In this document: one piece after another, positions 2,201 through 63,149 of the stretch | How the letters are laid out: each line of letters starts with the position of its first letter | Numbering within the stretch: position 1 is the first letter of the stretch | Origin: Rotaria sp. | Taxonomy: Eukaryota | Assembly: GCA_905250055.1 (NCBI GenBank) | Contig: CAJNOF010000027.1 | Location: forward strand, 908,618 to 972,617 | Reading direction: 5' to 3' | DNA length: 64,000 bases | The notes under the pieces: generated by a model | The model's input: only the letters and a program-made list of their open reading frames with translations | The model's database searches: none | Told to the model about the DNA's origin: nothing | Translations under genes and position numbers: made by a program

Positions 2201-2619
2201 CTAAGGGTACTCCACAACTTAAAAACTGCCCAGGCATGTTAGCTCGTATTCTGATTGTGAAAACCTTGTCCGCATACAGGATACCTTTGACCAATAAATT
2301 GATTATAACTCGTGAATAACTCGCAGTTTTGAGGAGATATTTTAACCATAATCTACTCTAGCCAAGATTAATATTCTCTGAAATTTTGGCTGAACTCCGT
2401 GGAAAAATAAAAAAGTTTCTTTGTGAGGGGCCCCCTTAAATTCATAGAAGTGAATTTTTAAGAATTTTAACAACAAAAATTTGAGGCTTAAAATTGTACT
2501 GTATTTGAATAAATTAAATTGAAAAATCAAATGAAATTGAAGCTAATAGCTTTTGAATTTTAAGTTTATGTTAATGAATTTCTCAAACCCTTCGGAAGGG
2601 TCTATTGAAGCGTTTATAA

Positions 2620-4652: not shown

Positions 4653-5525
4653 ATGTGGCGGTTAAAGTCAAGGTACGCGTACAATAGTGCAATCTGTGGA
4701 ATTATTGTTATTACTACTATATTTTCAAACTATTACTTCTGCAAGACTTTGTCAATACTGCAAACGCAGCAAGACAAAAGTCCAACACCCGTAGCATATA
4801 TTATTACGGTTCCAGGTCATGATGAACGAGTACCAAGTGTTGTGGATAATTTTAAGAAATATGCTAATATAGATCTTCGACGTTTCGATGGCATTCGTTT
4901 TTCTCATCAACATCATGAAAAAAATAAGTCTCTGAAACTGGGAGAACAGAGTCTACGAGCGACAATGACAATGTTCTATAGCATGTTGGTTCGTGAGAAT
5001 TACGAAAAAGTATTCGTGTTTGAAGATGATGCGATTCCACATCGTAATTTTACAGCATTGTTCAGAGAATTGCCTCGTCGTTGTCTTGAAGCCGATGTTT
5101 TATTATTAGGAGCCACTATATGGCATAGAAAGCATACAGATTGGCCCAGTGGAGCGTGCTTCGATGCTAGCAGTGAAACATTTGGTGCTTTTGCTCTCTT
5201 GCTTAAAAGAGTATCCTACCGTCCTATACTCCAATGGTTACAAGCTGGTCCATCGCAACCATATGATCATGTTTATCGCCACTTGCAACGAAAAAAACTC
5301 TCTGTTCGAGTGGCATTTCCTCCTTTCCTGGTGATTGCAGATATTTCGCATCCATCTTTAGTTGATAATAATCGAGTTAATATTCAATTTGATGTGAACA
5401 AACGGGCTGAAGTGCATCTCTGGCACTTGAAAGATTATCCAATGATTCGAATACCAACTCAGACCAAGAAGATCAATGCATCGGAGGCTAAACTTTTCAA
5501 GAACAAAGTGAATACACACACGTAA
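4653..5525 (+). CDS. glycosyltransferase family 25-like protein, intronless, N-terminal signal-anchor (type II membrane topology)
   Basis: 290-aa uninterrupted ORF. N-terminal hydrophobic segment AICGIIVITTIFSNYYF. GT25-like layout: YIITVPGHDERVPSV..DGIRF ... LGEQSLRATMTMFYSMLV...VFVFEDDAIPHRNF (DD motif). Confidence 0.55.
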   Translation: MWRLKSRYAYNSAICGIIVITTIFSNYYFCKTLSILQTQQDKSPTPVAYIITVPGHDERVPSVVDNFKKYANIDLRRFDGIRFSHQHHEKNKSLKLGEQSLRATMTMFYSMLVRENYEKVFVFEDDAIPHRNFTALFRELPRRCLEADVLLLGATIWHRKHTDWPSGACFDASSETFGAFALLLKRVSYRPILQWLQAGPSQPYDHVYRHLQRKKLSVRVAFPPFLVIADISHPSLVDNNRVNIQFDVNKRAEVHLWHLKDYPMIRIPTQTKKINASEAKLFKNKVNTHT

Positions 5526-37133: not shown

Positions 37134-39571
37134 AGTAAGATATTTTATTTTATTTTATTTCTTTTAATTCAATAGAAAAATAGATATAATTGTATCAAGA
37201 ATTGTTCACTGAAAAATAAATTGAAAACGTGTTACTAGAGTTCATCGGATAGATCTCAGATCTAACGGACGCTACTCTGAAAGTTAGAATCAATTATAAA
37301 TTAATTTCTATAAGATCACCTTGAATATTCCTGAAGAGATGTGTAGGATGTGTTCATCGTCGAACATAAATAATTAGACAGTGTTTCAAAAGCTCGAACA
37401 AAAAACCGTGAATACCTCTTCAGCAATTTAAGGAACTTAAATATCGTTTTTTTACAGTTTGATGACATATTCATTGAAGTTTTCAGATAAAATGTCTGTG
37501 TTTGCAGACGTCAGAATTAAAATAGTTTTACTGATGATCAAATTTGATTTAGGTATCATTGTAAAACGAAAGCTGCAAATTAAATGCGGCAAAAATGCAT
37601 CAACAGAACCACCTTTCAGCGATTTTGTCAAACTAGTACTATCGAAAACCGATCGCATTCTGAAAGATCTATGGCAATTACTGAATAAAAAGTCAATGAA
37701 GTTAAGGATACTTATGAAAATAAGCCAGAATGATGCATTCAGTCTATTACTCAAACTTGCTCATTAACCACAAACAATAACATACCGGTTTATGGTAAAA
37801 CATCTGTTACTAAAGCCATACGAGATAGAATTTGTTCAATAGTTCTACGAACAAGAGTTACATAAACCGAACACTTGATTCTAGATCATTTTCACAAACG
37901 TCATGAACTTCATCGATTTTCGATAGTACTATTTTTATAAAATCACTTGAATGTGTTGCTAATTGAACATTTAGTATGGGTACTTTTTTTTCTAAATGTA
38001 ATTTGCAGCTATCATTTTACAATGCTGATTTATTTGAATTGGCCTATGAATAAAACTATTTTAATCGGACTTCTCTAGATGTCTAGAGATTTTAATTGAA
38101 ATATATTGAATAAAACTTTAATGAATATGTGATTAAACTTTAGAAAAAATATTTAAATCTTTTGAATTACTGAGAAGCTATTAATAGTTTGTTTTTCGTT
38201 CGGAGTTTCTTGGAATAACCTATGATCGAAAAAGTATCTCATACCTTCGAAGCAATTACTGGACTCAAATTAAAAACTCTATTAGGAATATGAAGAATAC
38301 GGTTTGGCATTGGTTCCCGAAAATTTTGAAATAGACAGCCTCTATTCGTCACCAAAGCCAATTTTATTCGAATGAACAGTTTCATTGAATGTCATTGTTT
38401 CGAAATTTTTTCAATCAGCATTATAATGTCGATGTTCTCATGGGTCGTTTATTCTCATATCTTCATTCGAATAGCAATTATTTCCTCATTACTTAATATT
38501 CAGTTATATTATTTTGTTGAATCATACCTTTCGCCTTTATTTTCTGATAAAATACCTGAAAAACTATTTTAAGAGCTGAAAATTTATAACACAATAGCTT
38601 TAAGCAAAATAAATCTTCATCCGAGTAACATACTAAATCAAAAATATTTTATTTAGAAGAGTGCGTTATTCAAATATTCGGTTATAAAAGGACAATTTTG
38701 AATATTAAATGAGCATCAGTCTATTGAGTCCAATCCTGAAGAAAATACTAGTTCGATAAATCGTTGATAATCTATCAAATTTTTCTTTTTACTTATTAAA
38801 TTATTTACTCTAATATTTCTCTTTTAAGAACCAAGATTAAGTTTATATCGTGATGATGACGATGATTGGTTAGACAAGGTTATCACTGGTTTTCTTGTTT
38901 TTATCTTATTTATGATTATCATTTATTTGATACTAAACCATAAGAATAAAGTAAATAAATTATTTTTCAAAAAAAACTAAAAGAAAAAGGAAAACTCCCA
39001 TTTTCTTCGTTAATATAGATATTAGGTTTGATAATTGAAGGATGCAGACGACAACGTGTAATACATGGACGTCGTTTTGGTGTAAGTTCTAGTACAACAC
39101 GTCTTACTCGTTCAACGCATTCGATTTAAAAAACGCTATTAAATAAAAACAAACATTTATAATCTTTTCTTTTTTTTTCGAGAAATTCTTATTTGAATTT
39201 TCTTAACTTTTTTTTTGTGTAAAGTTAATCTTTATTTATATTGAAATATTCCATCGTGACAATTAGAGAACAATATAATGCAAGTCTTATTCTCAATAAA
39301 TTTATATCAGTTTGATGAATCATTCTGTATTGTTTTCTTTTAAATGTTGAGCTTTTGCAAACAATCTGTATCATTATAGTATATTTTTTCTTTTCTTAGT
39401 AATTCGTACTAATCATATATCATTAAAAAACATTATCTTTTTTGTCATTAGTGAAAATTAATAAAGAAAGGATGAAAAAGAAGATTTAATAGATGCTACA
39501 TAATTTAATTAATTATTATTTTGATGTATAAGAATAATTTTTTGATGTATTTTTGAATCTTACTTCAATAT

Positions 39572-39660
39572 CCGAACTTAGCTCAGCTGGCAGAGCGGTA
39601 GGCTGTAATGGTGTAATCATAGTAACCTATAGGTCCCCAGTTCAAATCTGGGAGTTCGGA
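39572..39660 (+). tRNA. tRNA-Tyr (anticodon GUA) with about 16-nt intron
   Basis: Acceptor stem CCGAACT/AGTTCGG. D-arm GCTC-AGCTGGCA-GAGC. Anticodon stem GTAGG/CCTAT with loop CT-GTA-A. Intron tggtgtaatcatagta after position 37. T-arm CCCAG-TTCAAAT-CTGGG. Discriminator A. Confidence 0.9.
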
Positions 39661-41570
39661 TTCGATATTTTTTTCTTTCTTTTTTTTCTTTCCTGTGTGT
39701 TTATATGGTAATAGGGTTACAATGATGAAAATATTTATTTTTGAAATAACTGAGCAATGAAAAGAAGTAGGAATTTGAGATTTTTTTTTCATCATAGATT
39801 TTTAAAAAATTCACAAAATTTCAAGATTTTCTTTTTATGTAAAATTTTACCTTAATTGAAAAATAAAATATCCAAATTATGTTCGAGATTTAGCTAATAG
39901 ACAAACATTATTTAGTGTATATTTGATTAATTGAACCAGCTGTAATTATTGAGTCAATGTGAAAAATATGTCATAGAGGAAAAACCATTTTTTTCTAATT
40001 TAGTCTTATGTTTATGTAAACAGTTTAACGCATCTGATTTAATCCACTTTAGGAATAAAATTTTAGATTGATAATTTTGCACTGTGAGTATCTTACAAAT
40101 TTATTCATCTTATAATTCTTTGATTAAATCTATTTGAATGTGTCTATTCATTCATTGTTTTCAGAAATACCAGCTGTATGAGTATAATACGTTGAAAGTG
40201 GCGCCAAAAATAGCGTTATCTTGGATGAATTATACCTCAGAGCTGGCAGGCTTGACTCTATGTATGTTATTTCTATATTTGCTAGTCAAAATGAATAGTT
40301 GATTGCTGTATTAAGCGTATTAATCTTATGTGAGGGTGTCATTAAGCTGCAAATGAAACGTCAGTCCTCTTAAAAATAGTAAAGCAGTAATTATATACAC
40401 ATGTATAATGCACTACCGGAAATGAACATTATGTTTTTGTTACCCACGTGTATGAAAGCTTTCATCAATGATGTAATTATTACGAGATACATGGACCATC
40501 AAGACTAAATTATGGTTCATGGACTAATGAATTTTATTATCATAATTGAGCTGTTATACTTTACAAATGTATAGAAAAAAAAGGATTCTATATAAATGCA
40601 AAAAAAGGAAAGTAAGAGCTGTATTTTGTATAGCAACAGTGTTAAAAACCAAATGATTTATGAAAAACCACACCATATTTATGATTTTTATTATAGACCC
40701 AAAATGTAATATTTAATTTCTAAATTAAAAACAAAAATCTTGTGACGGGCATCTGAAACATATCGAAATGAGAATTCTCAAAAGAATCTCTGTTTATTCG
40801 CTATAGTAGAACAATTCAACGATAAAGTGATTATTCTTCTAAACTTATCATAAAACCCTTACTGACATAGCTTGATAATCATGTTCTTCAGTGTATAGCT
40901 ACCACATAATTATTGTATTCACGCATTGGACAGCTTATTTTATGGCTAGTCACTTCAGATTATTCATCAGATAGCCTCATGGAAGATCATTACAAATTCT
41001 TTTGTTGTCTTTGTTCATACTCATTCGATTGATTTTTTTGGTAGTGTGCAATGTACTCGAATAGCATCGAAAGATAGTTATCATCTTACAGATCCAATTC
41101 TTATCCTAATTTTTGTAATTCACCGTTAAAATAAATGCCAAGATTTGTAGTAAAATTGTCAATAAAAATCGACCTATGAAGTTGCTGTGCTACTAATAAC
41201 AAATCAACCTATTCAAAACTTGTCTACTATAGAGTTAATATCAGACTCTCGGAAATAGTTTGGTAACGTTATCAATTCTACGTAGTATTGATCATCACAA
41301 AATAGAGCTTTCTGAAAAGCATTCTATTGCTTGGAAATATTTTACTTTTAGAAACTTTTCATCACTAAAATTTGCCTAATGGTGTTTTTATTTCTTTTTT
41401 TATTCGAATATGAATTTAATTTAACTTTTGCAGCTGAATAAAATACACAAAAATTCAATTCGAACGAACATTGAAAACATTTCATCATTCACTGTACATA
41501 TCAAAACTTAGTATACTTAATAGTAGATGTTTTTCATTATAGTTATTTCGTATCAAATGAAGATTAAGTA

Positions 41571-46396: not shown

Positions 46397-46740
46397 TTTA
46401 TGGATTCCGAATGACTGAGAAATTAAATATTGTCTATTCCTTTAATACATGTCATACGAACGAAAACTCTTCAAAGACACACAATTGTTATTTTTGCAAC
46501 TCTATAGATGTATCTCCTTGCCTCTTGTGATCATATTCTTGCTGTATCCGGTTATTGTTCAACATTTTTTGATTATTCCCAAATTTGTGTGATGATTCAA
46601 ATATAGAATATTTACTAAATGAATCGGAATTAAGTGAATGTTTCGGTGATGATGTATGAGCAAGACGTAGTGCTTCTTAGCTGAATTTGTTGACTTTCTT
46701 GAACTTTTGAATAGTTCTTTGTGACTTTAACCTCTGTGTA

Positions 46741-47690
46741 AAAAGTCTTCGGACAAAATATATGTTCAATTTTCTTTCATTTTTAAGTTGCAGGAGACAA
46801 TAAAAAGTAGTCAGCTAGAATGAAAATTTTGTGCTCTTTCTAAATATATAATCAGAATTTTTCAATGTCTTAAAGTTGTTTCTGAAAGAGCAAATTTTTG
46901 ATAGAAATCAAAAACAATGTTTGTACAAAACACTGGTTTCAAAGGCATTGGTAACTATGTTCACTCATTTTTCAGAGACCTAATTGTAATCGAAAAGGAT
47001 CAAAATCAGTTAGGTAGAAGCAAGATTTGATGCTCTTTCTAAATATATCGGTAGAACTTGGCCATGACTTACGGCTACTTGGCTATAAAGGAATACGTAA
47101 CTAAATAATTCGCCGAGACAAATAAGCTCTTTTCTCTGACGTGCAATTTCTCATAAGGATATTTTTGACTAGTTTTTTTCTGTCTAGTTTTGTAGGCAAT
47201 GTTATATGCTACAAAGCTGTGGCTTCAAATATTTTATAACTCAAAACAATCAAAATTTACAAATGATCTTCTACATACCACTCTATAGATGAGATAAAAT
47301 TTTTGAAACAATCGGTTTTTGACAGTTTTGATATCTTGAAATAGAAAGACACTGATCCTTTTCTACAATGTGTAGAAAGCAAATGAAGTTGTGCATTTTT
47401 TAGAGCAAGTTTTGCTCTACAAACCAGTGTAATAGTAGACTTTCTTATGATTAGAATTGAAGCACTTTTAATCGATATAGAAAAATGTAGTACAAGAAAA
47501 ATTCTGTACAAAGATTGCTTTTGGTTCCCATCAAAGATTTGCTCTTTCAGAAACAACTTTAAGTCAATGAAAAATTTTGAATATATATTTAGAAAGAGCA
47601 CAAAACTTTCATTCTAGCTGACTACTTTTTATTGTCTCCTGCAACTTAAAAGTAAAAGAAAATTGAATATATATTTTGTCCGAAGACTTT
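46741..47690. repeat. foldback / long-TIR non-autonomous element: about 220-bp near-identical inverted arms (46741-46960 and 47460-47690) around an about 500-bp core
   Basis: 46741 aaaagtcttcggacaaaatatatgttcaattttctttcatttttaagttgcaggagacaataaaaagtagtcagctagaatg... is the reverse complement of ...cattctagctgactactttttattgtctcctgcaacttaaaagtaaaagaaaattgaatatatattttgtccgaagactttt ending at 47690; a partial third copy at about 47020. Confidence 0.6.
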
Positions 47691-48523
47691 TTACATGGAG
47701 GTCAGTAGTCTTTTTTTCGAACATGGTTAATGTCTGCCTAGATATATTAATTTTTATTTCATTCATATACAGCTACTTGGCATGTCTATGATAATGATAT
47801 GAAAAATGTGACAAGATAAGAAGTTATTACAGAATAGGATGAAAATCATACTCTCGTTTTTCTCATACAAAGATAAAAGACGAACTAACGTGTCCTATTT
47901 ATAGTTGCGTATGTAAGCTTGCCAACTCACTCGAGAAACCTCTCTGACGTCTGATTTCTCGCACGAATCAACTTAGTCAAACAATCGTACTGGTTAGACA
48001 ACTGTATCTTAATCGAAATCCGTACGATTTTATCAAAGACCAATGAGTGGCCGTTTTCTCTTTGTTTAAGAGAATAATATTTGTTTAAAAACTCAATGAA
48101 TTCAATGACTTTAATTCTGTAAGGTACAACAAGTCGATAAAAAAATGTAAGAACCATTATTTGGAATAAAGATAGGTTTTATTATGCATTGAGTCGAGAT
48201 CATGATATTAAGAAGATAGACATATCGTCCATATATGCTTGCTCTTCTACAACCTGTTTTATACTTCTATTCTCTTTAAACTCTTTTTGATCTGTCTGCA
48301 TTTAAAATTGATTACATTGCAGAACTCTTGCACAAGATAAGAGTGTTGTTTTCTTTTGCTGTGTTATTGCAAGTAAGCTGCTGTATTTTTCATCTTCGTA
48401 AATAATGTGACAAAAAAACGTCTTATCATTGCACTCTACTGATATGGCATATAAAAATGCAATCACCTTTTCAATTATATTTTCATTTGTGTTTTGACAA
48501 CAGAGAAGTAACATACAACAAAA

Positions 48524-49777: not shown

Positions 49778-50859
49778 ATTTGTAAGCTTTCAATGTGAAA
49801 ACATTATCACATTGTTTGTTTTTTTTTCATTTGTTTCAATAAAGTTTAAGTGAACATCGAACAAGAAGGTCAAAGTTTGTTGTTTGAATAAGAATATATA
49901 ACATCTAAACGTGGCATGCAGTATCCATTTTAATCTGAGGAAATGAATATAATGAATTGATTTCAGTAACGCTCATGATGGTTGACCAATCCAGTTATAA
50001 GACAAACCATTAGTCAAGGCTATCCTACCCTATTTCAAAGAGTTGAGTTACTATTGTTCTTGTTGACGTACTTTACTTCTGCAAACGTATAGAAAACTTT
50101 GTGGTCTCAATTATTAAGGAAAGTTTCTTGATTAAAGACAGATTTTAATGTAAACTTTCGTTATCGTTGATAACGAAAAAAAATTAGCAATGCAACCAAT
50201 GTGTAGCTGATTACTTTATCTTATTCCAGAATAATATGAAATAGTCCTCTTCATTTGCAAAAACGACTTAGCTCGACACATACGAATTTCTTCTATCTTT
50301 CATCTCATTTTTTTTTTATTATTCATACTTCTTACTTATTTTCAATATAAATAGAGCTGATGCTAGGGAGAAAAAGCCTTTCGTTTTACATAGAAGACAA
50401 GTCTTTACTAAGATCTGAATATAGACTCATTCAATACCTATCAGTAAATAGGTCTTTGATGAAAAATCTCTTTTCACAAACAAAATATGATGACTTTACA
50501 TTGAAGGTAACAGAAGAAAAGCATACTGGCATTACATGATTGAAATTTGCAGAGATGTCATGGGTATTATCCATTAAGGTGGTCACACTCAAAGATATAT
50601 TCGACGAGTTCAAAACTTGCTTTGTAAAGAGAGGTATCAGTGGACGCAGAGAATTTTAGTCATATTCTTACACAGAGCATACCAAAAGTAATGGTGCCTA
50701 CCCTATAATATTTTACAGAAGACTCCAGGTAGTTTTTTCTATAATATTCTGATAGTCTAATTCCTGTTCTATTAATTCTACAGTATTTCATAAATCTTTA
50801 AACGATAGTATAATATTGAAAACATAGCAAAAAATAGTGAGTGGTTCACAAAAGACTTT

Positions 50860-51960
50860 TGTTTAAAGCAAGTTTATCAAGTTTTTATTACATCAAATGT
50901 TCAAAATAATCACTTTGGTTGTTTACACATAACTGCATTCGTTGAATCCATTTATTAAAAATTTTTTTATACTCTTCTTTTTTCAACGACTTCATAAATT
51001 TGATTACAGATTCATACAATGATTCGGAATCATCTTGATCGTCAATATTTTGTTTGATCAAATGAAACAACCAAAAGTAACATGGAGCCAGGTATGAAGA
51101 ATTAGGTGGATGTGGCATTATTGTTACGCCTTCCGATTCAAGATAATTAACTAAGTCTTCATGAATATGTGGTTTTCCATTATCATGATGAAGTTTAATT
51201 GATCGAATATCTAAGGAAGGTAGTTGGTTCTTAATTTCATCAATAACAGCTTGCAAACAATTATTGATGTAATATTGATGATCGATTGTTTCTCCACGTT
51301 TAACAGAATGAATTAAAACTGGACCAATTGACTTAAACAAAATAGACAGGAGAGTTCTTGGAACAAAACGAATACGTCGAACCACCGCCAGTAGAGGATC
51401 TTCACTTCCAACCCAATCAGCATTCGATGACTTTCGACTGATTTGCTTGTGATAAAATCATGATTCATCACTTGTCACTACATGACATCATCTCCAAACA
51501 CCTTGTTCATATTTTAACAAGTTTTCTTGGTATATTCGTACTCGTTCAGCCTTTTGAGAGTTCCTCAGATGTTTGAGAACATAACGTACAGTAATTTTTT
51601 TCAACTGTGGATGATCAGAAATAATTCGTTGAACGGTGCCATAACGTAGACCATTTTGTGCTTCGAGTTCGTCAATTGTACCATAAGACTCATCATTAGT
51701 AAGATTGTGAACTTATTCAATATTTTCAGATGTGGTCTCCATTATAGGTCAGCCAGCTCTTTCTTCATCTTCAACTTCTTATCGATCTTCACGAAACCAT
51801 TTGACCATCTTTGAACAGTTCTAAGAGGGGGACCTTCATCATCAAAAGACAGTATATAGTTCATTATGAAAAACTATGGATTGAATATGAAGTGCACTAC
51901 GTATTTTAATATAGAAACGAAAATGTTCTTCATCCATTTGAAGAGAAGCGAACAGTTTTG
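50860..51960 (-). mobile_element. degenerate mariner-like element (Tc1/mariner, cecropia/mauritiana-like transposase) with internal stops/frameshifts; termini not resolved
   Basis: C-terminal ORF 50888-51385: HDNGKPHIHEDLVNYLESEGVTIMPHPPNSSYLAPCYFWLFHLIKQNI...DYFEH (D,D34D region, PHPPYSPDLAP-like). N-terminal remnant MDEEHFRFYIKIRSALH... at about 51914 followed by stops. Confidence 0.8.
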
Positions 51961-52019
51961 ATCGTATTATGATCTACATTGAAAACACCATGCTACATTG
52001 TCGTGGACGTATTATTTCT

Positions 52020-52090
52020 TTTCTCCTCTTTTTTTCTATTAATCTTCTCTTCTCTTCTCTTTTCTTTCTTTTCTTTACCTTTTTACCTTC
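52020..52090. repeat. CT-rich low-complexity tract
   Basis: ttctcctctttttttctattaatcttctcttctcttctcttttctttcttttctttacc. Confidence 0.6.
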
Positions 52091-52593
52091 TCTGATATTT
52101 AGCTGCGTTTATACATATAAAACACACGTGCTCTGTTTCTTTTGTGTGTATGTGTGTACAGTTAGTTCTTGTGTATTCTGAAGATGATAATTTATAAAGG
52201 TAACACCAAACTTTAGTGTATCAAAATTTTTGCTAATGTAATATCACTTGAAGATTCATAAAATATTGTACAATTATAGAGCACGGCTTGGGCTATCAGA
52301 ATATACAGAAAAAACTTCCTGAAGCCTTCTGTAAAATACTATAGGGTCGGCGTCATTACTTTTGGTATGCCCTAAGTAAAACACGCAATTAATATAGTCA
52401 ATTATACCTGTTTATTAATAAAATAAAAATATACTCATATTTATATAATATAGCAAATAACCACAAATATGAATTATATTGCAAGTAAGGACTATTTCTT
52501 ACTCATGCATTTACAAGGCTTTAAATCAAAATAAATAAATAAAGTCGATTCTAATCTCAATTCCAAACTCAAATGCAACAACTCTGTAATGAA

Positions 52594-52723
52594 TCAACTG
52601 GATTTGCTGAGTGCCAAAAATTCTTCACGTGCTTTGTGATCAGTACGAAAGACACCAAGCATCGAAGATGTTGTTGTGCGTGAATTTACCTTTTGAACTC
52701 CTCGCATGACCATACACATATGA
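52594..52723 (-). CDS. GCH1: GTP cyclohydrolase I, exon 6 (last, stop TGA)
   Basis: (V)[42 protein letters not shown]; acceptor tttttttcag. Confidence 0.85.
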
Positions 52724-52786
52724 CTGAAAAAAATAAGGCAAAATAGATATCATATTAATGTTTCTACTTTCATTACGTATACTTAC

Positions 52787-52871
52787 ACACATTCGACGAT
52801 AACAGCAACGCCTCGTGGTTGTATGACTTCTTCAATTGCTTCAGCTATCTCTCTTGTTAGCCGCTCTTGAA
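52787..52871 (-). CDS. GCH1: GTP cyclohydrolase I, exon 5
   Basis: (V)QERLTREIAEAIEEVIQPRGVAVIVEC; donor GTAAGT. Confidence 0.85.
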
Positions 52872-52917
52872 CTATAATAAGAACAAAATAGAAATCTGAT
52901 ATACTGCTAAAGCTAAC

Positions 52918-52949
52918 CTTGCAGACGGCGACTAAAAATTTCGACGATT
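52918..52949 (-). CDS. GCH1: GTP cyclohydrolase I, exon 4 (32 nt)
   Basis: (R)IVEIFSRRLQ; flanked by ...attcaag acceptor and GTTAGC donor. Confidence 0.75.
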
Positions 52950-53018
52950 CTTGAATCACAAGAGAATCAATTCATATGTGTACATATAAGTTTATGCTGT
53001 AAAGAAACTATTGCTTAC

Positions 53019-53093
53019 CTTGCTACTTTACTCAAGCCAAGCACTGTCTTTTTAGGTAAATATCCAACTGAGACTTTGCCGAAAAAAGGAACT
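53019..53093 (-). CDS. GCH1: GTP cyclohydrolase I, exon 3
   Basis: (L)VPFFGKVSVGYLPKKTVLGLSKVA; acceptor ttattttag; donor GTAAGC. Confidence 0.85.
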
Positions 53094-53647: not shown

Positions 53648-56600
53648 AGAGCAACTTTCTAAAAGAAATGTTGAATATGTTTTATCACTAGGGTTTCTCG
53701 AGAGATTTTCGCGAAAAAAATTTATGTGTCAGGCAAAGTTGAAATTTAGGCACAATAAAGCAGAGCTTTTAAAACATCTAAAAACTAAAAAGGTTGAATA
53801 AGATGAGAAGAAGGAACTAATCGTATATATTTATATTAAGTAATGTTTAACTTTAAATGAAATCTAATTAAATCTAGGAAGTTGTAGAGTTTGCAAGTGT
53901 TCTCGATTGAAATTTAGTTTGAATCAGCAAGCTTCTACATAAAACATTAGAAAATATTTTTAAACTTATGATTTTTAATTATTATTTTTTATCGATATTT
54001 ATTGATCTTCGAGTTTAGCGTGTTAGTAGACGATATGTCAAATATAGATGTGTGATGCTAATAAATTTTTTGAAGCCATTTATTAACCAAAAAAAAACAT
54101 AATGGATATTTTAGCTTGTGTATTTTCTGTGGTAGTATCCATACCTGCCTTCTCTTAGAATTTAATACTCTGAAAATTTAAAATGCTACTTCACTTGTTC
54201 ATAAAGATACTTCGGAAACCTATTCTCGGATGTCAACGCAGCAGTAGTTATTGATGTATACATTCAAGTATGAATAAGTGAAAATGAATACTCTCTCTAG
54301 TAAAAAGAAGCATATACATGCTATGCTTTCTTAATATAAACGAAAGTTCGACTGTATTGTTAGATAAAACGAAAATATTTTGTGCTTTTGCGCCTAAATA
54401 AAATCGAATTCGACCTAAGTTTAATTTTGTCTGTTATAAACATATAATAGCCTACGAAACAAAAATTTTCTACCTTCTGTTTTGTTTACCACGTGTTGAG
54501 ATGAAGCTTCTGTAGAGAACACTTGTGTAGTTGGACTGACAATATTATTCATTTTTTACTTGTATGTGCTGGTGAATGTATTAAATGTTTAGTGTGCAGA
54601 AACGGACGAAAAAAACAATATGAGGCACTTATACGCATAAACGTTTTTTATACATTTTGATTCATCCGAAATGATTGTTATTCAAATGACCTTCAGGAAC
54701 AAAAGCAAAATATTATGCGTCATGTGTGAACGAGCAAGTCATTATTCATCAAATACATGTGTTCGTAAGTGACTGTCGACAAGAATAACTCTTAGTGAAC
54801 TCGATATCAAACAGGGAATATAGGAATAAACTGAAGTATAATATAGAAATATACCGAAGAAAAAATAAACTTTATGCGATGTTCCCTACTTCATCATGTT
54901 ATTAATGACCTGTGTCATCAATTTTTCATAAAAATCGACGATTCACGGCAATTGATAAAAACTTGATGACTTGAACGATTTGCCCTTTTTTCCAAATTAC
55001 CAAAAGTCTGAGGAGATTGATTTCTACTCAAAAGAATTGAGTTGAATATGGCTGTGGGCACCATTTAAGGGAAACGACGAATTAAGGAAAATAATGTGCA
55101 ACACAATGGAGGTCATAAAAAATCCATAATGGTGGATCAATAGGATTCAGTGTCTGTAAAGCATGAATGATCCGTGTTTTACTAGAAATAAATCCCATTG
55201 ATCCTCGATTATGGATTTTTTGTGCCCTCAATTCTGTTTCACAGTTTTTCCCCTTATTTCGTTATTTCCTATAAACGGTGCTCACAGATGGCACACAGTT
55301 TTTTGTGAAATGGAACTACACGTTTTTTATTAGTCAAATATTCTAACAAATTACTATTTTTGTGGCATAATCTTCTATTAATAATTAACCTCGAAATCTA
55401 AGTGATAACAAACGATGCGGTTGATACCAATGACTTGAACATACTTCCATTCGTTAGCCATTGAGATTTTCGACTGAAATGTAGCATTTTTCTAGGAATT
55501 TAAAAATAATCATGTAGTGTGTCATGAAAAAACCAAGAGAAGAACTGTATTTAACCAATGGTTTTCGAACAGTTTCAATAACACGACGAAGATTCAATCA
55601 AAGCGGATTGACATTTATTGTAGTTCTAAAAAGACTGCTTAAACACAAAATATACTTTTTTTTTTTTAGAAACGATCAATATGGCATCCTTATAGTTGTT
55701 ATTTTCGAAAAACCACATGAAGATATGATTAAACAGATTATTAGACAAAAAAGAATACTCTGTGCAGTAAAAAACTTATTATACAGGCAGGTAGTTGTCA
55801 TCCGTATAGGAGAAGCTGATAACCATTTGATAATCAATAATGTCCTTATTGGAATCATGCGGCACATCAACGATCACATACGTCTCAATTATCTGGTATT
55901 TGATTTGAAAACGATTCTTGCATTCATTACATCCTGGTACAATCCATGATAACACAGTAAAATGGTGTATACCATGATCGTTTATTTATATAATATAAAG
56001 ATGCTTTATGCAATCGCAGTATTTCGGCTGAAATGAAAAATAACTCTATATCAACATGGTCTGCGTACTGTATTGTTGAAGTCTTGTAAATCTATGGTGA
56101 AATACCATGCACTAGTACACAGTCAATAGATCTCGTTGAACCATGTCCAACATTGCTACACTGCTCACCATAAGATGTCACAAAGAAATGCTACGTGCTA
56201 AAACAGTTCTTTCTCTTTTGTGTCTAGTGAACTGCGTCGGACTTCGAAACCCGATTTCGTCTCCGATGGAGTCAAAGTGATTGAAAACGCGTTTTTTTCG
56301 AAGTTAATGTCTGAGTTATATTAATACAACAATGAGTAGTTTGACTTTTATTCAGAAACAAGGTTATTCATTAAATATTATATAATATTTAATGGATGAG
56401 TATGTCAACAGTTTTTACATGTATTGCAATAGAAAAATTGTTGCTGATCATCTTTTAAAACAATATGATGAAAACGATTCCATCATTTACTTAATTTTAA
56501 TGTTTTCTACTTGTCAACAAATTTTAGTGATGGATCAACACCTTGTATTCATTTTTCTGGCACTGTTTTTTGTAAAAACCTTCTGACTCATAATTTTTTT

Positions 56601-58537
56601 GTTGTCTCTGAAAACAAACTTGAAAAGATAAATCCTATGACAATATAAACTGTTTTTGTCTTACTGAATCGCTTTCTTTTTTTATTCTTTTAAGATACCA
56701 AATATTGATATGAATCAGACATTATGGCTAAACTACTAAAAATTTTTTGGAGTTGGAGTCGAGTTTTGGAATCAAAAAGTGTGACACCGCTGAGAACTAT
56801 TTGTCAACAACCGATTTTCACTTTTCTGGTGTATGTGAGAGCAATGAGTCCAGTTCAATCAGAAAGTCTGAGTTCGGTTTTTAGCAACGCTTTTGAAAAC
56901 GTATTTGCTACTGAAAGATTTAAATAAGAAATGAACGAGATGCAATATAACACACGTCGAACGAAATGTATCTTTGCATAGAAGATAATAAAAATGTAGC
57001 ATAATAAAAAAAAAATTCACTTACATTTCATACTTTGTGTGTAATCATTATGGATATTTATGTTCTTTTTTTCTGTCTTCTACAACTTATCTGTTTCTTA
57101 TTGGTATTGAAAAAGTGTTTTACTAAGTGTGTTTGCCTTCTTCTATTTGCTTGTATATGTATGTAAAAAAGATGATAAAGTTGTATGTGACTAGGTTTGA
57201 GATACTGCCTTCCAGGCGCTAGTATTCAATGTACATTAATCAACTGATTGACGGCGTAGACAAATGAGAGTGGTGAGAAATTATCTTTGTATATGATATG
57301 ATGAAGATATTTCCTTTAAGTTTTCATATAGGTTTCAATCATAGTGTTTAGCTCAGTCACTAGCCGCTAAGATATTGATGTTCTAGAACCTGTTACGAAT
57401 GTTTTTTTCATCCCTCCTAGGACAACTACATGCATGTTTCTGGTAAGATCTTAGATCAAAATTTGAAATTAAGACGATGCACGAGTAACAATCTAATATA
57501 TATAAGATAAGATTCGATATGATCTACATTGAAACAACATTAGCTGCTGTCAAATCGAGACGTCATTTGTCAAACAATTGCATTGAAAAAATTCTTGCTT
57601 TGCTTTTTTTTGTACAAGAAAAAACCATTTTGTATGAGCTTGTGTCAGAGAGGTCTATAACGTGTAGCAATGACAAGCTTTTTAAATAGCTTACGTGACT
57701 TACATAATGTTTTAGTAGTATCATCATGTTGGCGGTGCTGTGGTGGCCTATGCTTGTGACGACATTCCAATTCTGGATGGATTAGTGCAGGATTTCAGCA
57801 ATTACAAATGTAGAATTCTGAGATTAAATGAAAGTCGTCAGTAAGTAAGAGCAGCGAGTATAGCGATATCAGAGATACTCGAAACTTCTTTTTGAATATG
57901 GAACCATCACGCGACAGTAAAAGATTTCTAGCTGCGATATACATCTTTAGTACGTGCCTAATAATGATTGATTCAGAAGGTACCTTTTACTACAATAAAG
58001 CATAATGTAAATTTTATCCTATGTGATCACGATTATAGCATCGTTTTTATTGCTTTTTATCAAGGACAAAATAGTTTCGAATCAACATTTGATGATAGTT
58101 AAATGTGTATTATAAAAAAATTTCATAGGTTACACTTGTCGGATGAAATCCTGATTCTGATAGAATCGGATCCAGAATTCAATTCTGAACAAAATGATAC
58201 ATGTGTTCAAGTAAATCAGCGCCATGCTTTAGGCGTATATAAATAAATCATCAACAAAAACTTGGATCTGTCTGAAAAAAGCTTTATGTTCATTGCCCAT
58301 CATATAGAGTTACAATTGATAAACGTGAACTGTCGATCCAGTTCGTTAGAAGATTTCTTGTCCATCGGTCTAGATGCTTCTTAAGTTTATACATCTATTC
58401 TTTCAAGACAATGATCAAAAAAGATTTTTTTATCGATGAAAAATTTTTAATAATGATGTCCAAGACTGTTTCTGCAAGGAGACATACATCAGACTATAGT
58501 ATTAAGAGAAAACTAACCATAGTATAGCTAATATATA

Positions 58538-59500
58538 ATAGCGGACAAAATTTTTCGTACGATTTTCTTTTTCAGTATAACTCCATTAAGAAACTGCCTT
58601 TTGAGTCCCCATTTTAGCCGATAGTGCAGTCATGGTCTGTAGTATATGCACACAAAAATTAAGATCATAAAATCGAGTTGTAGTTGAATTGAAATTATAA
58701 CATTAAGATATAATGACTTTTTCGTGGACAGAATTTCTTATACAATTTTCGATTCACATTATTTTTCTTTGAGTTTGTTTAGATAAAAAAAACAAAGCTT
58801 GTATAGATAACATAGAAAAAAACACGAGCTATATTATGGCTATTGAAATTTTCTTCGAAAAATATTTTCTTTTGAGTGGCACATTTCGATTTCATGAGAA
58901 ACACGGTATGTTACTAATGTGGCACACAACGTTTTCGCACTCACATACCCGAACTTTTTTTTTAAATATAGCATTCGCAACAACGTTAAAACCTGTGTAG
59001 AAACAGCATATGGTCTTGCGGAAAAACTTCATTCGTATGATACTCTCCGCTGTCTCTGCTACTCTTGAAAATCCTATGTTTTTAAAAAATGAAATATGTA
59101 AGTGCAAAAATATTGAGTGCCACATAAGCAACATGCTGTGTTTCTCATGAGGTAGAAATGTGTCACTCGAAAAATAGTTTGTTTTGAAGAAAATTCCAAT
59201 AGCCATAATGTAACTCATATTTTCTTCTATGTTGTCTATACGAGCTTTGCTTTTTTTCTAAACAATCTCAGAGGAAAACAATGTGGATTGAAAATCGTAC
59301 AAGAAATTCTATCCATGAAAAGTCATTATATCTCAATGTAATAATTCCAATGCAACTAGAACTCAATTTGATTAGCTTAGTTTTTGTGCGGATATACTAC
59401 AGACCATGACTGCACTATCGGCTAAAATGTGAACTCAAAAGGCAGTTTCTTAATGGAGTTACACTTACAAAGAAAATCGTACGAAATATTTAGTCCGCCA
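58538..59500. repeat. about 960-bp near-perfect palindrome (foldback element / long hairpin), arms about 450 bp each, about 85-90% arm-to-arm identity
   Basis: 58575 ataactccattaagaaactgccttttgagtccccattttagccgatagtgcagtcatggtctgtagtatatgcacacaaaaa mirrors 59386 tttttgtgcggatatactacagaccatgactgcactatcggctaaaatgtgaactcaaaaggcagtttcttaatggagttac. The inner arms also mirror (58868-58935 vs 59101-59168; 58660-58835 vs 59215-59385). Termini share ...gcggacaaaatttttcgtacgattttc. Confidence 0.7.
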
Positions 59501-62336
59501 CTGTATATCCATAACACTGACACCTTTGAATCATTTCATTGGTACGCGTTCGATGGGACAGGATGCAAAGACATCAATGGTTGGTAAAGACTTCAAGCTA
59601 CATAGTCTTGAAAGTCTTTGCTTAGTGAACGCGTCAGTATTTTCAAAAGGCTTTATATCCAAATAACATTCTTGTTTGACTGTCTATACTTTAGCTGAGA
59701 AAACTACAGATATTTTGAGGCAACACTATTCGCGATAATAAAATATATCTGCACTTACATTGGGATTATTTTTGCCAATATCTGCAATTCCTTAGCTAAG
59801 AGAGTTTGCGAGTTATTTGTACGTGATATGTATACAGAAAAATCAAATTACCTTTATTTAGGCATATATTGAAGTCCTAATCTTTCAGTAGCACCATGTT
59901 CTCACGCTCAATACGTAAATATTCCTATAAACTAGTATGTGTAAGACATCACTCAAAAACTCGACCATATACTCAACTCATGTCACATAACTCAATAAAA
60001 CTATGTCAGTTTGTAGCATTAAGTGATAATTAAAAATGCTTGAAAATTTTAAGTTCTAAAACGAGTCTTTTATTGAAAAGAAAAACCACACCATACACCC
60101 TCGAATGTGGGAATCAGAATTATCAATTGAGTATTCTTTCATTGCATATTATACCTTTATTCAATGATAACGTTTCAATTCTTCTATATTTAAATTATTG
60201 TTAGTCATTGCGTCGTTTCATATCAATACAGGGAAACAGCAATACTGATTTCCTAAAGAAGCAGGCCTTTGACTCAAAATTATTAATTTTGCGAATACAG
60301 AGATATTCGTTGCGCAAAACTACGGTAATATTCGTAATCAGCGCATAAAACTGCGTCGGTTAACGTGCAATACAATATATTTTCTGAAGATAAATAGTTT
60401 CAGAAGACATGTACTTCGGTTTCACAAAAGTGATTTTTACTGAAATTCTTCTTTTCACAAATGAGTTATTCTATCAAAAGTGATTTACTAAATCATATAT
60501 AACAATTGTTGAGCGAGAAAAATCCATTTTCCAGAGCGCAATTTTTCTGTTCATCTTTTATGCAAAAGTTCCTTATCCCGTGTTTAGGTATTCTTGCTAA
60601 TCATTTGTTTATTAATGGATATCAAGATAAATTTACAGCATACATATATACATCATTTTCTGGTGTTATCTTATAAAATAGATTATCACTATATTTCCGT
60701 TTTTAACACCTTATTTTATGGTTTTTGCATCAATCGATCGATATTGTCTTGGTTCAATGCTTGCCAAATTCTAAGCTCAGTAGTATAATCGTTACTCGCT
60801 GGTGTAATTTTGATCATGGTTATTTTATATACAATATTCTCTATAAATACTGAATGAATAAATAGCTAAGATGATGGACTTTGATCCGCTATATGAATGA
60901 ATATTATTTACAATTGACCTATACATAAGTTTACAAGTTACGATTGTCGCTGATATTGTTGCTTTTCTTATGATCCTATTCGGTCTATTAGTAATGTTTA
61001 ATGCAAAACAGTTACATGTTCTTCGTATTGCAGTTAACCATCATTTTTGTACTAAAGTTCAACTAGTACATATGTATCCTATTCAACTAGATATTTACAT
61101 AATTCATGATATGTCTTTCTATATACTATAATACGTATTCATCTTAGTAACAAGATAGAAATCTAGAAAATAACTTGTTTATTTGCTGAATAAATTTTTA
61201 TTGACCTATGATGATAATCTTGTTCTTTCTGAACCAAAAATATCCTGTGATTCATTTCAAATCACCGAATTTATTGATATCTGATAGTATCAGGTAGAAC
61301 TAACTTTTAAATGAACATTAAATGTGATACAAGCGTAACAGAGTAATATACAAAACTTTATTGTAGTTTTAAAACTGTATCGAACAGAGATGAATAACTT
61401 GTTCTGTTCTTTGTGTATGTAACCAGAAAATTTTTATTCTCAGAATTTCGATCATTGTTGTATTACATTAGACGAAATTATGCGTGATATTTGAGCAACA
61501 TATTGATCAAAAAATAAACTAAGTACTTTGAAAGATTACCAGAATGGATTCAAAATCTCTGGTAAATTATAAAATATTCTAACTGAATAACGATAACCGC
61601 ATGACTAGTTTTAAGACAATGTAGATGGCGATAGATTCTTATAATAAGTGTCGCTTCGCACGTTTGAGTTTATATGAAACGTTCTGTTCTTCGGCTAATA
61701 AAATTTCTTGGTATGTGACTCAATGACCTTGTATACACCAAACAATTTAAGCCCAAATTTATGAACCTGTTTAGTGGAAAATGTAATCCGTATATAATGC
61801 ATTTTCAAGAGACGAGCTAATTTAAATGCATCAATCAAATTGACATTGTCGATACCAATTAAAAAAACGATAGAATGTGTTTTCAAAAACATTAAACGCT
61901 AAAATAACGTTTACAAAGAAATTAAAAAAATATATATAAAATAAAAGAAGAATGACACGAGCAGCGACTTCTCTGTCATTGTTAACAAACAAAAAATGCA
62001 ATAATTGCTTTTGCAAAAGTGCTTGTTACATATGCCTTTCAACTGCATCATAATAGCAGAGTCTAATTTTTTTATTCGTGCATTAACTATTAAGTGTATA
62101 AGCATGTCGATTTATTACTAAATTAATGCCACATTATGTTTCTGGTGTAGACAAGGTCACTATAAATGATGTAACGAATTTGGCTTTAAAGTTATTGCCT
62201 TCTCTCTTTCTTTCTTTCTTTGTTTTGTTTCAAAGTAAATTTTGACCTCTTCGACTAAACAATTCAACACATCATTTATCTCTGTTGAAGATTTTAGGAA
62301 GAATTTTTCATTTTAAAAAAAATTTTTTCTAGTATC

Positions 62337-63149
62337 ATGTCATCTCAACAATGTATATCTTCGTTTCGTTTAATGACTTACAATATTCGTCTTGATACTA
62401 AGTACGATGGAATAAATCAATGGCATCATCGTAAAAATCGTGTTATTAATCTTATTCAACATTATTCACCTGATTTACTTGGTGTTCAAGAACCTCTTCC
62501 TCAACAAATGATTGATTTACAAACAGGATTACCGAATTATGGTTCTTACGGTGTTGGTCGAAACGATGGCAGAGACCGTGGCGAGTTCTGTGGTATATTT
62601 TATCGTCATGATCGTTTTGAGCTCAATGATAAAGGTACTTTTTGGTTGTCAGAAGCACCAGATACGCCCGGTACTAAAGGATGGGATGCAGCTCTTCCAC
62701 GTATATGTAGTTGGGTGAAACTCAAAGATCGACTGACAAACAAAGAAATTTATTATTTCAATACACATTTCGATCATGAAGGTCGTAACGCTCGTCGGCA
62801 AAGTGCTCATCTTATCTTAAATCGTGTAGAACAAATAGCTGGACCCTCGACACCTACAATACTGACTGGTGATTTTAATTCAGGACCCGAATCAGATGCT
62901 TATCGTACTATTATAACAAATACTAATTTTCAAGATGCGAAACTTTCCACCGAATTGCCTCATTGTGGTCCAGATGGTACTTGGTGTACCTTCAACGTAA
63001 AACATGGGATAGGCGATCGAATAGATTATATTTTCATTACATCGTCACATTTCAAAGTATTGCAACATGAACATTTAACTGACTCCGAAAATAAGTTTTA
63101 TCCATCAGATCATTTACCAGTATTGGGAGTATTGGATTATAAAAATTGA
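62337..63149 (+). CDS. endonuclease/exonuclease/phosphatase (EEP) family protein, intronless, 270 aa
   Basis: Uninterrupted ORF: LMTYNIRLDT...DLLGVQEP...TGDFNSGPESDAYRTI...YPSDHLPVLGVLDY (EEP catalytic motifs). Strong acceptor-like ttttttctag 4 nt upstream of the ATG. Confidence 0.8.
   Translation: MSSQQCISSFRLMTYNIRLDTKYDGINQWHHRKNRVINLIQHYSPDLLGVQEPLPQQMIDLQTGLPNYGSYGVGRNDGRDRGEFCGIFYRHDRFELNDKGTFWLSEAPDTPGTKGWDAALPRICSWVKLKDRLTNKEIYYFNTHFDHEGRNARRQSAHLILNRVEQIAGPSTPTILTGDFNSGPESDAYRTIITNTNFQDAKLSTELPHCGPDGTWCTFNVKHGIGDRIDYIFITSSHFKVLQHEHLTDSENKFYPSDHLPVLGVLDYKN

What the first reader, a model, noticed from the sequence alone, without database searches (positions are those of the whole stretch)
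58538..59500. About 960-bp near-perfect palindrome (long hairpin / foldback element)
The two arms are reverse complements over about 450 bp each, about 85-90% identity, with nested inner inverted repeats and a short central spacer near 59020. Such structures are typical of foldback transposons. Alternatively it could be a hairpin-RNA locus, a source of endogenous siRNAs. A 108-aa minus-strand ORF inside (58892-59218) is probably incidental. Termini carry a CGGACAAAAT-type motif. The 46741-47690 element also has this motif.
Basis: seen in the sequence. Interest (0 to 1): 0.6.

Follow-up and report, generated by a model that had tools for sequence, protein, structure and literature searches.

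The report
Decayed long-inverted-repeat transposon in rotifer
The roughly 970-bp palindrome is real and is most likely the dead, non-coding remnant of a cut-and-paste DNA transposon in a bdelloid rotifer genome, sitting where a 2.8-kb deletion removed most of an oxidoreductase gene; it is an ordinary kind of element.

Summary
Window 58536-59503 is a palindrome with two arms of about 425 nt at 84.7% identity and an unpaired centre of about 120 nt. The window comes from the bdelloid rotifer Rotaria sp. 'Silwood-1'.

The orthologous loci of R. sp. 'Silwood-2' and R. sordida lack the element. Homology stops at 58536 and resumes at 59504. In those species the interval holds 2.8 kb, including the first 430 codons of a GMC oxidoreductase gene. 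Only the last 76 codons, now carrying a stop, survive in the window, directly next to the element. The element is therefore foreign DNA that arrived in the Silwood-1 lineage and lies at a deletion junction.

The arms contain no tandem subrepeats, so it is not a Drosophila-type Foldback element. The right end reads CAGTG next to TA. A 25-nt terminal motif recurs 183 bp inward in each arm. This is the IR/DR layout of Tc1-like transposons such as Sleeping Beauty and Tc3.

It codes for nothing, and mismatches between the arms show no strand bias that would indicate a selected RNA hairpin. No second full copy could be found with the data reachable here. Only a diverged homologous terminus in one other assembly points to a family.

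Verdict: a new member of a known kind, of low to moderate interest.

The parts
58536..59503 (.). The whole palindromic element, 968 bp. The left boundary is uncertain within 58536-58541.
   Evidence: Homology to R. sp. Silwood-2 (L005) ends at 58536 and resumes at 59504. R. sordida (L006, L007) also resumes at 59504.
58536..58960 (+). Left arm (long terminal inverted repeat).
   Evidence: 84.7% identical to the reverse complement of the right arm.
58961..59079 (.). Non-palindromic centre of about 120 nt. No recognisable coding remnant.
   Evidence: The alignment degenerates here. Six-frame Pfam scan gave only sub-threshold matches: TELO2_ARM at E 0.01, 15.8 bits against a cut-off of 27, and DUF3985 at E 0.13.
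59080..59503 (-). Right arm (long terminal inverted repeat).
58543..58567 (+). Outer 25-nt repeat of the left arm: GGACAAAATTTTTCGTACGATTTTC. Candidate transposase-binding site.
58726..58750 (+). Inner copy of the 25-nt motif in the left arm, 183 bp inward (5 mismatches).
   Evidence: With its mirror site it is the best non-self match in the 64-kb window on both strands. Also seen as I4.
59290..59314 (-). Inner copy of the 25-nt motif in the right arm (4 mismatches).
   Evidence: (D2, I4).
59472..59496 (-). Outer 25-nt repeat of the right arm (2 mismatches to the left outer copy).
59499..59505 (-). Right terminus ...CACTG followed by TA. Read inward this is TA|CAGTGGCGGAC.
   Evidence: Sequence. 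The sister species read AAT|TATATCC at this point, so the TA belongs to the target.
58531..58541 (+). Left junction ATATA|TAATAG. Either the terminus CAGTGG altered by three transitions, or a terminus cut back by about 5 nt when the flank was deleted.
   Evidence: Similarity to Silwood-2 is still about 69% up to 58540 and at chance level beyond.
59505..59732 (+). Remnant of the last 76 codons of a GMC oxidoreductase gene, with an in-frame stop, directly next to the element.
   Evidence: tblastn with the 507-aa Silwood-2 protein: residues 431-506, 68% identity, E = 2e-27, with no other match in the window. My reading of the frame shows the stop.
58892..59218 (-). 108-aa ORF, incidental.
46730..47702 (.). 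Second element: 201-nt terminal inverted repeats at 92% and a non-palindromic interior. Shares the subterminal motif CGGACAAAAT...ATTTTCTTT. Possibly mobilised by a related transposase.

Best explanation
The element is a non-autonomous, now decaying cut-and-paste DNA transposon. It consists of two long terminal inverted repeats of about 425 bp and a short leftover centre. It is most likely an internally deleted derivative of a Tc1-like element of the IR/DR type, which has two transposase-binding repeats per arm, as in Tc3 and Sleeping Beauty.

It entered the Rotaria sp. 'Silwood-1' lineage after the split from R. sp. 'Silwood-2' and R. sordida. It inserted at a TA inside codon 430/431 of a GMC oxidoreductase gene. 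The 2.8 kb to its left, comprising the upstream region and the first 430 codons, was then lost. That deletion ends at, or about 5 nt inside, the left terminus.

The deletion probably arose from an aberrant or one-ended transposase cut followed by end joining. It destroyed the gene and probably immobilised the element. Since then the two arms have drifted apart neutrally by about 15%.

Shown: the palindrome, its absence from two sister species, the exact boundaries, the gene truncation, the repeated terminal motif and the lack of coding capacity.

Inferred: the superfamily, the order of insertion and deletion, and how the deletion happened.
For: - Organism: the neighbouring gene is found exactly in assemblies GCA_905331525.1 and GCA_905331535.1. 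These are Rotaria sp. 'Silwood-1' individuals in PMC7943196, and protein names agree.
- The element is present at the same site in L001 and L004 and partly in L003.
- It is absent from the orthologous site: breakpoints are at 58536/59504 against L005 and at 59504 against L006 and L007 (alignments).
- The interval in the sister species is 2.8 kb carrying the GMC gene, of which only residues 431-506 survive in the window.
- The element has no similarity to that interval.
- The right end reads TA|CAGTGG, and the target in the sister species has TA at that position.
- The 25-nt terminal motif is repeated 183 bp inward in both arms. These are the best non-self matches in 128 kb of searched sequence. 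The rest of the outer and inner arm halves are unrelated (43 against 35 +/- 6 for shuffles).
- The IR/DR definition, two transposase-binding direct repeats per inverted repeat, is from PMC5224488.
- No coding capacity.
- Arm divergence is about 0.17 (my Kimura two-parameter calculation from the counts). Flank divergence between Silwood-1 and Silwood-2 is about 0.30 (my Jukes-Cantor calculation from the 74-76% identity). This fits an arrival after the species split.
- A diverged homologue of the outer arm exists in assembly L002. It shares the last 31 nt exactly and aligns at about 62-68% over the remainder (nhmmer E = 5e-10; z of about 8 against shuffles).
Against: - No second full copy and no autonomous partner were found. 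The six-frame protein search gave nothing. Two metagenome scans gave nothing. nhmmer over about 170 kb of fetched loci, roughly 110 kb of it from Silwood-1, found nothing beyond this locus and the L002 variant. The Silwood-1 genome itself could not be searched.
- A TA duplication cannot be demonstrated, because the left flank is not the original one.
- The left tip reads TAATAG, not CAGTGG.
- CAGTG also fits the hAT terminal consensus (my own knowledge).
- Sleeping Beauty mobilises MITE-like substrates poorly, and no MITEs accompany the IR/DR element Tdr1 (PMC5224488). Internally deleted IR/DR derivatives are therefore not expected to spread well.
- The mariner in the same window has unrelated ends.
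Confidence: 0.6

Rival explanations
1. A palindrome made on the spot during double-strand-break repair. The 2.8-kb gap was filled with captured DNA that was duplicated in inverted orientation by fold-back priming. On this view it is a unique structural palindrome and not a member of a mobile family.
For: It lies exactly at a deletion junction. No second full copy was found. Bdelloids repair many breaks, and microhomology-mediated joining at transposons is documented in them (abstract of PMC2861651).
Against: The arms have no similarity to the lost or neighbouring DNA. The right end is a clean CAGTG next to a target TA. A 25-nt terminal motif repeated 183 bp inward is a transposon feature that fold-back repair does not predict. 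A diverged homologue of the arm exists in another assembly. A second element in the window shares the subterminal motif.
Confidence: 0.13
2. A member of the Foldback (FB) superfamily in the strict sense, or of another superfamily with long inverted repeats such as hAT, P/Galileo-like or MULE, rather than Tc1/mariner.
For: Almost the whole element is inverted repeat. A foldback-like DNA transposon insertion has been reported in bdelloids (PMC2861651, citing Arkhipova and Meselson 2005). CAGTG fits the hAT end consensus (my own knowledge). The target duplication cannot be read because the left flank was deleted.
Against: The arms contain no tandem subrepeats. The 9 bp on either side differ: gctaatata against tatatccat. 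The TA next to CAGTG and the two binding-site-like repeats per arm point to Tc1-like IR/DR elements.
Confidence: 0.15
3. A functional hairpin-RNA gene. The palindrome is transcribed, folds into a duplex of about 425 bp, and is diced into endogenous siRNAs that silence related transposons or a host gene. This is compatible with a transposon origin.
For: A transcript of either strand would form a very stable hairpin (-504 kcal/mol, z = -46). Weak matches to long-hairpin miRNA precursor models reflect this shape.
Against: There is no strand bias in wobble-compatible mismatches: 19 against 26. The arms have diverged at a near-neutral pace. The locus is absent from two sister species. No complementary target was seen in the window. 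The Rfam scores are far below the gathering thresholds: 52 against 195, 46 against 140 and 35 against 85 bits. Expression and small RNAs could not be examined.
Confidence: 0.07

Closest known systems
Tc3 of Caenorhabditis elegans and the IR/DR subgroup of Tc1-like transposons (Sleeping Beauty/Tdr1, Minos, S, Paris, Bari3)
   Same: Long terminal inverted repeats. Two direct copies of a roughly 25-nt motif in each, one at the tip and one about 180 bp inward. The IR/DR definition is from PMC5224488. From my own knowledge of Colloms et al. 1994, Tc3 has 462-bp repeats with binding sites at the end and about 180 bp in. The end reads CAGTG next to a TA target.
   Different: There is no transposase gene and no recognisable remnant of one. 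The arms of about 425 bp extend well beyond the inner repeat. The left tip is altered or truncated. The TA duplication is not demonstrable. No autonomous partner is known. The sequence is unrelated to any named element I could compare.
Foldback (FB) elements of Drosophila, and the foldback-like DNA transposon insertion reported in bdelloid rotifers
   Same: The element is almost entirely two inverted arms and would snap back into a hairpin. Bdelloids are reported to carry such an insertion (PMC2861651).
   Different: FB arms are built from short tandem subrepeats and are flanked by 9-bp duplications (my own knowledge). Here there are no tandem repeats and no 9-bp duplication.
MITEs derived from Tc1/mariner elements (Stowaway-like)
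   Same: Non-coding, inverted-repeat ends, TA target, dependent on a transposase supplied in trans (inferred).
   Different: At 968 bp, with arms of about 425 bp, it is larger than typical MITEs. High copy number is not shown. PMC7943196 classifies under 1% of the unclassified repeats in bdelloid genomes as MITEs.
Hairpin-RNA (hpRNA) loci that give endogenous siRNAs in Drosophila
   Same: A long, imperfect inverted repeat with arms of several hundred bp.
   Different: No evidence of transcription, of small RNAs, of a target or of selection on pairing.

Membership tests
Tc1/mariner, IR/DR subgroup (non-autonomous derivative) | Two transposase-binding direct repeats in each terminal inverted repeat, one at the tip and one inward | tested here: met
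   The 25-nt motif lies at 58543 and 58726 (+) and at 59496 and 59314 (-), spaced 183 and 182 bp apart. The inner sites are the best non-self matches in the window. This holds at the sequence level only; binding was not tested.
Tc1/mariner, IR/DR subgroup (non-autonomous derivative) | Insertion at TA with TA duplication | tested here: inconclusive
   The right flank is TA, and it is the TA of the target in both sister species. The left flank also reads TA, but it is not the original flank because 2.8 kb were deleted.
Tc1/mariner, IR/DR subgroup (non-autonomous derivative) | Termini of the CAGTG type | tested here: inconclusive
   The right end reads CAGTGG. The left end reads TAATAG, which is either three transitions or a truncated tip.
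Tc1/mariner, IR/DR subgroup (non-autonomous derivative) | A related autonomous element encoding a DD34E transposase with the same ends | not testable with these tools
   The rotifer genome cannot be searched by DNA here. The only transposase in the window is a mariner with unrelated ends.
Foldback (FB) elements, Drosophila type | Long inverted arms making up most of the element | tested here: met
Foldback (FB) elements, Drosophila type | Arms composed of short tandem subrepeats | tested here: not met
   Tandem Repeats Finder found nothing at minimum score 30. The arm halves are unrelated apart from the 25-nt motif.
Foldback (FB) elements, Drosophila type | 9-bp target-site duplication | tested here: inconclusive
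   The flanks gctaatata and tatatccat differ, but the left flank is secondary.
Any transposon family / MITE | Several dispersed copies in the genome | tested here: inconclusive
   The only relative seen is a diverged terminus in L002. About 170 kb of fetched loci, two metagenome scans and a six-frame protein search gave nothing.
Any transposon family / MITE | Presence/absence difference at orthologous sites, with sharp ends | tested here: met
   Absent in R. sp. Silwood-2 and R. sordida, with breakpoints at 58536 and 59504. It is accompanied by a deletion, so this is not a simple filled and empty site.
hpRNA / endo-siRNA locus | Long transcribed hairpin that yields small RNAs | not testable with these tools
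   The fold is very stable. No expression or small-RNA data are available.
hpRNA / endo-siRNA locus | Pairing preserved by selection (strand-biased G:U, conservation in relatives) | tested here: not met
   G:U counts are 19 (+) against 26 (-). The locus is absent in sister species.
Rfam miRNA precursor families MIR8007, MIR6140, MIR530 | Score at or above the family's gathering threshold | tested here: not met
   52 against 195, 46 against 140 and 35 against 85 bits. These are plant families, and the matches reflect a generic long hairpin.

The most novel reading that the evidence does not exclude
The element did not insert by ordinary transposition. Instead an excised linear or hairpin-ended transposon was captured at a chromosomal break, or its two ends integrated 2.8 kb apart, deleting a gene in a single step. 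This would be a direct trace of transposon-mediated gene loss during break repair in an anciently asexual, desiccation-tolerant animal. The resulting palindrome might since have served as a source of hairpin siRNA against its own family.
Probability: 0.1. Interest if true: 0.5.

Novelty: new member of a known kind. Interest (0 to 1): 0.25.

Why it matters
This is a clean, datable example of a DNA transposon linked to the loss of a gene (a GMC oxidoreductase) in one bdelloid lineage, with the intact gene still present in two sister species. Bdelloids are studied for how asexual genomes cope with transposons. Individual, well-resolved insertion and deletion events, and a possible uncatalogued Tc1-like IR/DR family, add detail to that picture. 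It does not change any general view. Long palindromes like this one also break short-read assemblies, as contigs L003 and L002 show.

Tried and rejected
1. Other copies in the window. blastn at word size 9 and nhmmer with an arm profile found none. A 52-bp match at 33314 (79%, E = 1e-4) is not convincing.
2. Other copies through spurious gene calls. The exact 108-aa ORF is not on record. A six-frame concatenated translation of the element found no protein with E <= 0.001.
3. Two exact-pattern scans of JGI metagenome contigs, using a 23-mer conserved between the arms and a degenerate terminal 25-mer, gave 0 matches.
4. Sampling more Silwood-1 sequence through mariner transposase relatives gave three loci totalling 49 kb, with no copy.
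5. The neighbouring mariner (50668-52379) as the autonomous partner: rejected, because its ends are unrelated.
6. A local inverted duplication of the lost GMC region: rejected, because there is no similarity.
7. Arm-to-arm gene conversion as the cause of the SNP cluster at 59217-59420: rejected. Five variants pair in the window allele and four pair in the other allele.
8. Arms built from two tandem units of about 183 bp: rejected.
9. A coding remnant in the centre: no Pfam match above threshold.
10. Known RNA families: only sub-threshold generic hairpin matches.
11. The papers of Arkhipova and Meselson 2005 and Colloms et al. 1994 are not held in the library. Statements about them rest on my own knowledge or on secondary citation.

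Full report
**Observation.** The palindrome is real. The repeat finder reports three collinear inverted blocks between 58531 and 59508: 191 nt at 88%, 71 nt at 85% and 163 nt at 82%. A local alignment of the region against its own reverse complement runs from end to end. Arm against arm there are 360 matches in 425 aligned positions, or 84.7%, with 45 transitions, 20 transversions and 9 gap columns. About 120 nt in the middle (58961-59079) are not palindromic. As a single strand the region folds at -504 kcal/mol, against -188 +/- 7 for shuffles (z = -46). Tandem Repeats Finder finds nothing in the region.

**Organism and setting.** The window is eukaryotic at about 31% G+C. It carries a 916-aa ubiquitin hydrolase ORF, a decayed mariner and other genes.

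The endonuclease/exonuclease/phosphatase gene at 62337-63149 occurs with exactly this product in four NCBI assemblies. Two of them, GCA_905331525.1 and GCA_905331535.1, are listed as individuals of the bdelloid rotifer Rotaria sp. 'Silwood-1' in PMC7943196. Protein names from the homology search agree, and the nearest orthologues are in R. sp. 'Silwood-2' (89%) and R. sordida (88%).

The element is present at the same site in L001 and L004. L003 is a contig that starts exactly at the outer right arm, which is the kind of break a palindrome causes in short-read assemblies.

The window contains seven other palindromic or long-inverted-repeat elements, unrelated in sequence to one another. Such structures are therefore common in this genome region.

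**Comparison with sister species (the decisive result).** I fetched the orthologous loci of R. sp. 'Silwood-2' (L005) and R. sordida (L006, L007).

- Similarity to L005 runs up to window 58536 (L005 3384) and resumes at window 59504 (L005 6186).
- Similarity to L006 and L007 also resumes at 59504.
- The element therefore has sharp boundaries and is absent from both sister species.
- In those species the interval is not empty. It holds 2.8 kb containing the upstream region and the first 430 codons of a 507-aa GMC oxidoreductase gene.
- In the window only residues 431-506 survive (59505-59732; 68% identity, E = 2e-27), directly next to the element. My reading of the frame shows an in-frame stop.
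- The element has no detectable similarity to the missing 2.8 kb.

The palindrome is therefore DNA from elsewhere that arrived in the Silwood-1 lineage, and it sits at a deletion junction that destroyed a gene.

**Ends.**

- At the right junction the window reads ...GTCCGCCACTG|TATATCC, where both sister species read ...AAT|TATATCC. Read inward, the end is TA|CAGTGGCGGAC. That is a CAGTG tip next to a target TA, as in Tc1-like elements (my own knowledge).
- At the left junction the window reads ...CTAATATA|TAATAGCGGAC. This differs from the right tip by three transitions.
- Alternatively the flank extends to 58540, with about 69% similarity to Silwood-2 up to that point, and the first 5 nt of the element are missing.
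- Because the left flank is not the original one, a target-site duplication cannot be read.

**Internal anatomy.**

- The terminal 25-mer GGACAAAATTTTTCGTACGATTTTC recurs at 58726-58750 with 5 mismatches. Its mirror recurs at 59290-59314 with 4 mismatches. Each lies 183 or 182 bp inward of the outer copy.
- These are the best non-self matches in the whole window on both strands. Only one unrelated site reaches 6 mismatches.
- Apart from this motif, the outer and inner halves of an arm are unrelated (score 43, against 35 +/- 6 for shuffles).
- Two direct copies of a binding-site-sized motif in each long inverted repeat define the IR/DR subgroup of Tc1/mariner transposons (PMC5224488; three such repeats occur in Bari, S, Paris and Minos, PMC3828361).
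- From my own knowledge of Colloms et al. 1994, Tc3 has 462-bp repeats with sites at the tip and about 180 bp inward.
- The simplest reading is an internally deleted IR/DR element. Two long inverted repeats joined over a short leftover centre necessarily look like a near-perfect palindrome.

**Coding and RNA.**

- The 108-aa ORF (58892-59218, minus strand) has no Pfam match and is not on record as a gene product.
- No frame of the element has a relative among 5.8 billion proteins.
- The ORF is mirrored by a 54-aa ORF on the other arm. The two differ far more at the protein level than at the DNA level. The ORF is incidental.
- The centre has no coding remnant.
- Arm mismatches would be G:U 19 times in a plus-strand transcript and 26 times in a minus-strand transcript. 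Nothing suggests that pairing is preserved for an RNA of either strand.
- Matches to three plant long-hairpin miRNA models lie far below their thresholds and only reflect the hairpin shape.

**Age.** Arm divergence is about 0.17 (my Kimura two-parameter calculation from the counts). The flanks differ from Silwood-2 by about 25%, or about 0.30 after Jukes-Cantor correction. If the arms were identical on arrival, the element is roughly half as old as the species split. This agrees with its absence from the sister species and its presence in all Silwood-1 assemblies that cover the site.

**Is it a family?** This is the weak point. I could not search the rotifer genome by DNA.

- Within the window, within about 170 kb of fetched loci, in two metagenome scans and in the protein collection, no second full copy appeared.
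- One relative did appear. In assembly L002 (individual RSIL806) the right flank and the last 31 nt of the element are identical to the window.
- The preceding 117 nt in L002 are a diverged homologue of the outer arm (nhmmer E = 5e-10; alignment score 68, against 28 +/- 5 for shuffles).
- Beyond a single 'n', L002 continues with window 41345.
- Whether this is a true haplotype or an assembler's jump into a paralogous copy, a second, diverged version of this arm exists in the species.
- The 46730-47702 element (201-nt inverted repeats) shares a subterminal motif, CGGACAAAAT...ATTTTCTTT, matching at 24 of 29 nt. In that element the motif lies 20 nt from the tip rather than 6 nt, and no inner copy is visible.

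**Mechanism proposed.** A non-autonomous long-inverted-repeat element, moved by a Tc1-like transposase supplied in trans, inserted at a TA in the GMC oxidoreductase gene. The left flank was then lost up to the element's tip. A cut at only one end, followed by resection and end joining, is the likeliest way for a deletion to stop at a transposon end. Integration of the two ends at sites 2.8 kb apart, or capture of an excised element at a break, would give the same product. The element, probably crippled at its left tip, has decayed since.

- Shown: structure, boundaries, absence in relatives, gene truncation, repeated motif, no coding capacity.
- Inferred: superfamily, order of events, cause of the deletion.

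**Comparison and verdict.** It behaves like a foldback element in the loose sense, and foldback-like DNA transposon insertions have been noted in bdelloids (PMC2861651). It fails the Drosophila FB hallmark of tandem-repeat arms. It fits the Tc1-like IR/DR layout at the sequence level, but membership is unproven without a TA duplication, a second copy or a transposase partner. It is a new member of a known kind and of modest interest. Its main value is as a well-resolved case of transposon-associated gene loss in an asexual rotifer lineage.

Noticed in passing
window 1922-2308, 7554-7913, 30860-31218, 35517-36217, 37395-38198, 55052-55287: Six further palindromic elements of 236-804 bp (58-78% arm identity), unrelated to each other or to the 58536 element by blastn. 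Hairpin-type repeats are unusually dense in this 64-kb stretch. The 55052-55287 hairpin lies in a 2-kb block that corresponds to only 281 bp in R. sp. Silwood-2.
   Followed up: partly
window 46730-47702: A 973-bp element with 201-nt terminal inverted repeats (92%) and a non-palindromic interior. It shares the 29-nt subterminal motif CGGACAAAAT...ATTTTCTTT with the studied element. Its true ends and target duplication are unresolved because no sister-species sequence covers the site.
   Followed up: partly
window 50202-53082 (mariner at 50668-52379): A decayed mariner with ends of the ...GCATACCAAAAGTAATG... type and a 165-aa transposase fragment. It lies in a 2.9-kb block that is absent from R. 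sordida, where L006 2178 and 2179 are contiguous. Relatives at 75-84% DNA identity occur elsewhere in Silwood-1.
   Followed up: partly
L002 7000-7172 (= window 41345 joined to 59473): In the RSIL806 assembly, window 41345 is joined through a single 'n' to a diverged copy of the element's outer arm. About 18 kb of the window are missing. This is either a large structural difference between individuals or haplotypes, or a scaffolding or assembly artefact at a repeat.
   Followed up: partly
window 59505-59732: A GMC oxidoreductase pseudogene remnant: the last 76 codons, with an in-frame stop. The full 507-aa gene is intact in R. sp. Silwood-2 and R. sordida.
   Followed up: yes
window 62337-63149 and 4653-5525: The endonuclease/exonuclease/phosphatase gene has Bacteroidota (Hymenobacter, 56%) as its nearest named non-rotifer relatives. 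An intronless glycosyltransferase family 25 (LPS biosynthesis) ORF is also present. Both look like horizontally acquired genes, as is common in bdelloids.
   Followed up: no
window 59217-59420 and 57646-57756: Differences between Silwood-1 individuals are clustered. There are 10 in 200 bp inside the right arm (window against L001 and L004) and 7 in 110 bp upstream (L001 against the others). There are none in the rest of 2.8 kb. The pattern is not arm-to-arm conversion. It may reflect switching between haplotypes, or conversion from paralogous copies.
   Followed up: partly
window 39571-39661: A tRNA-Leu (anticodon TAA) of 91 nt, the only RNA gene reaching an Rfam gathering score in the window.
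   Followed up: no
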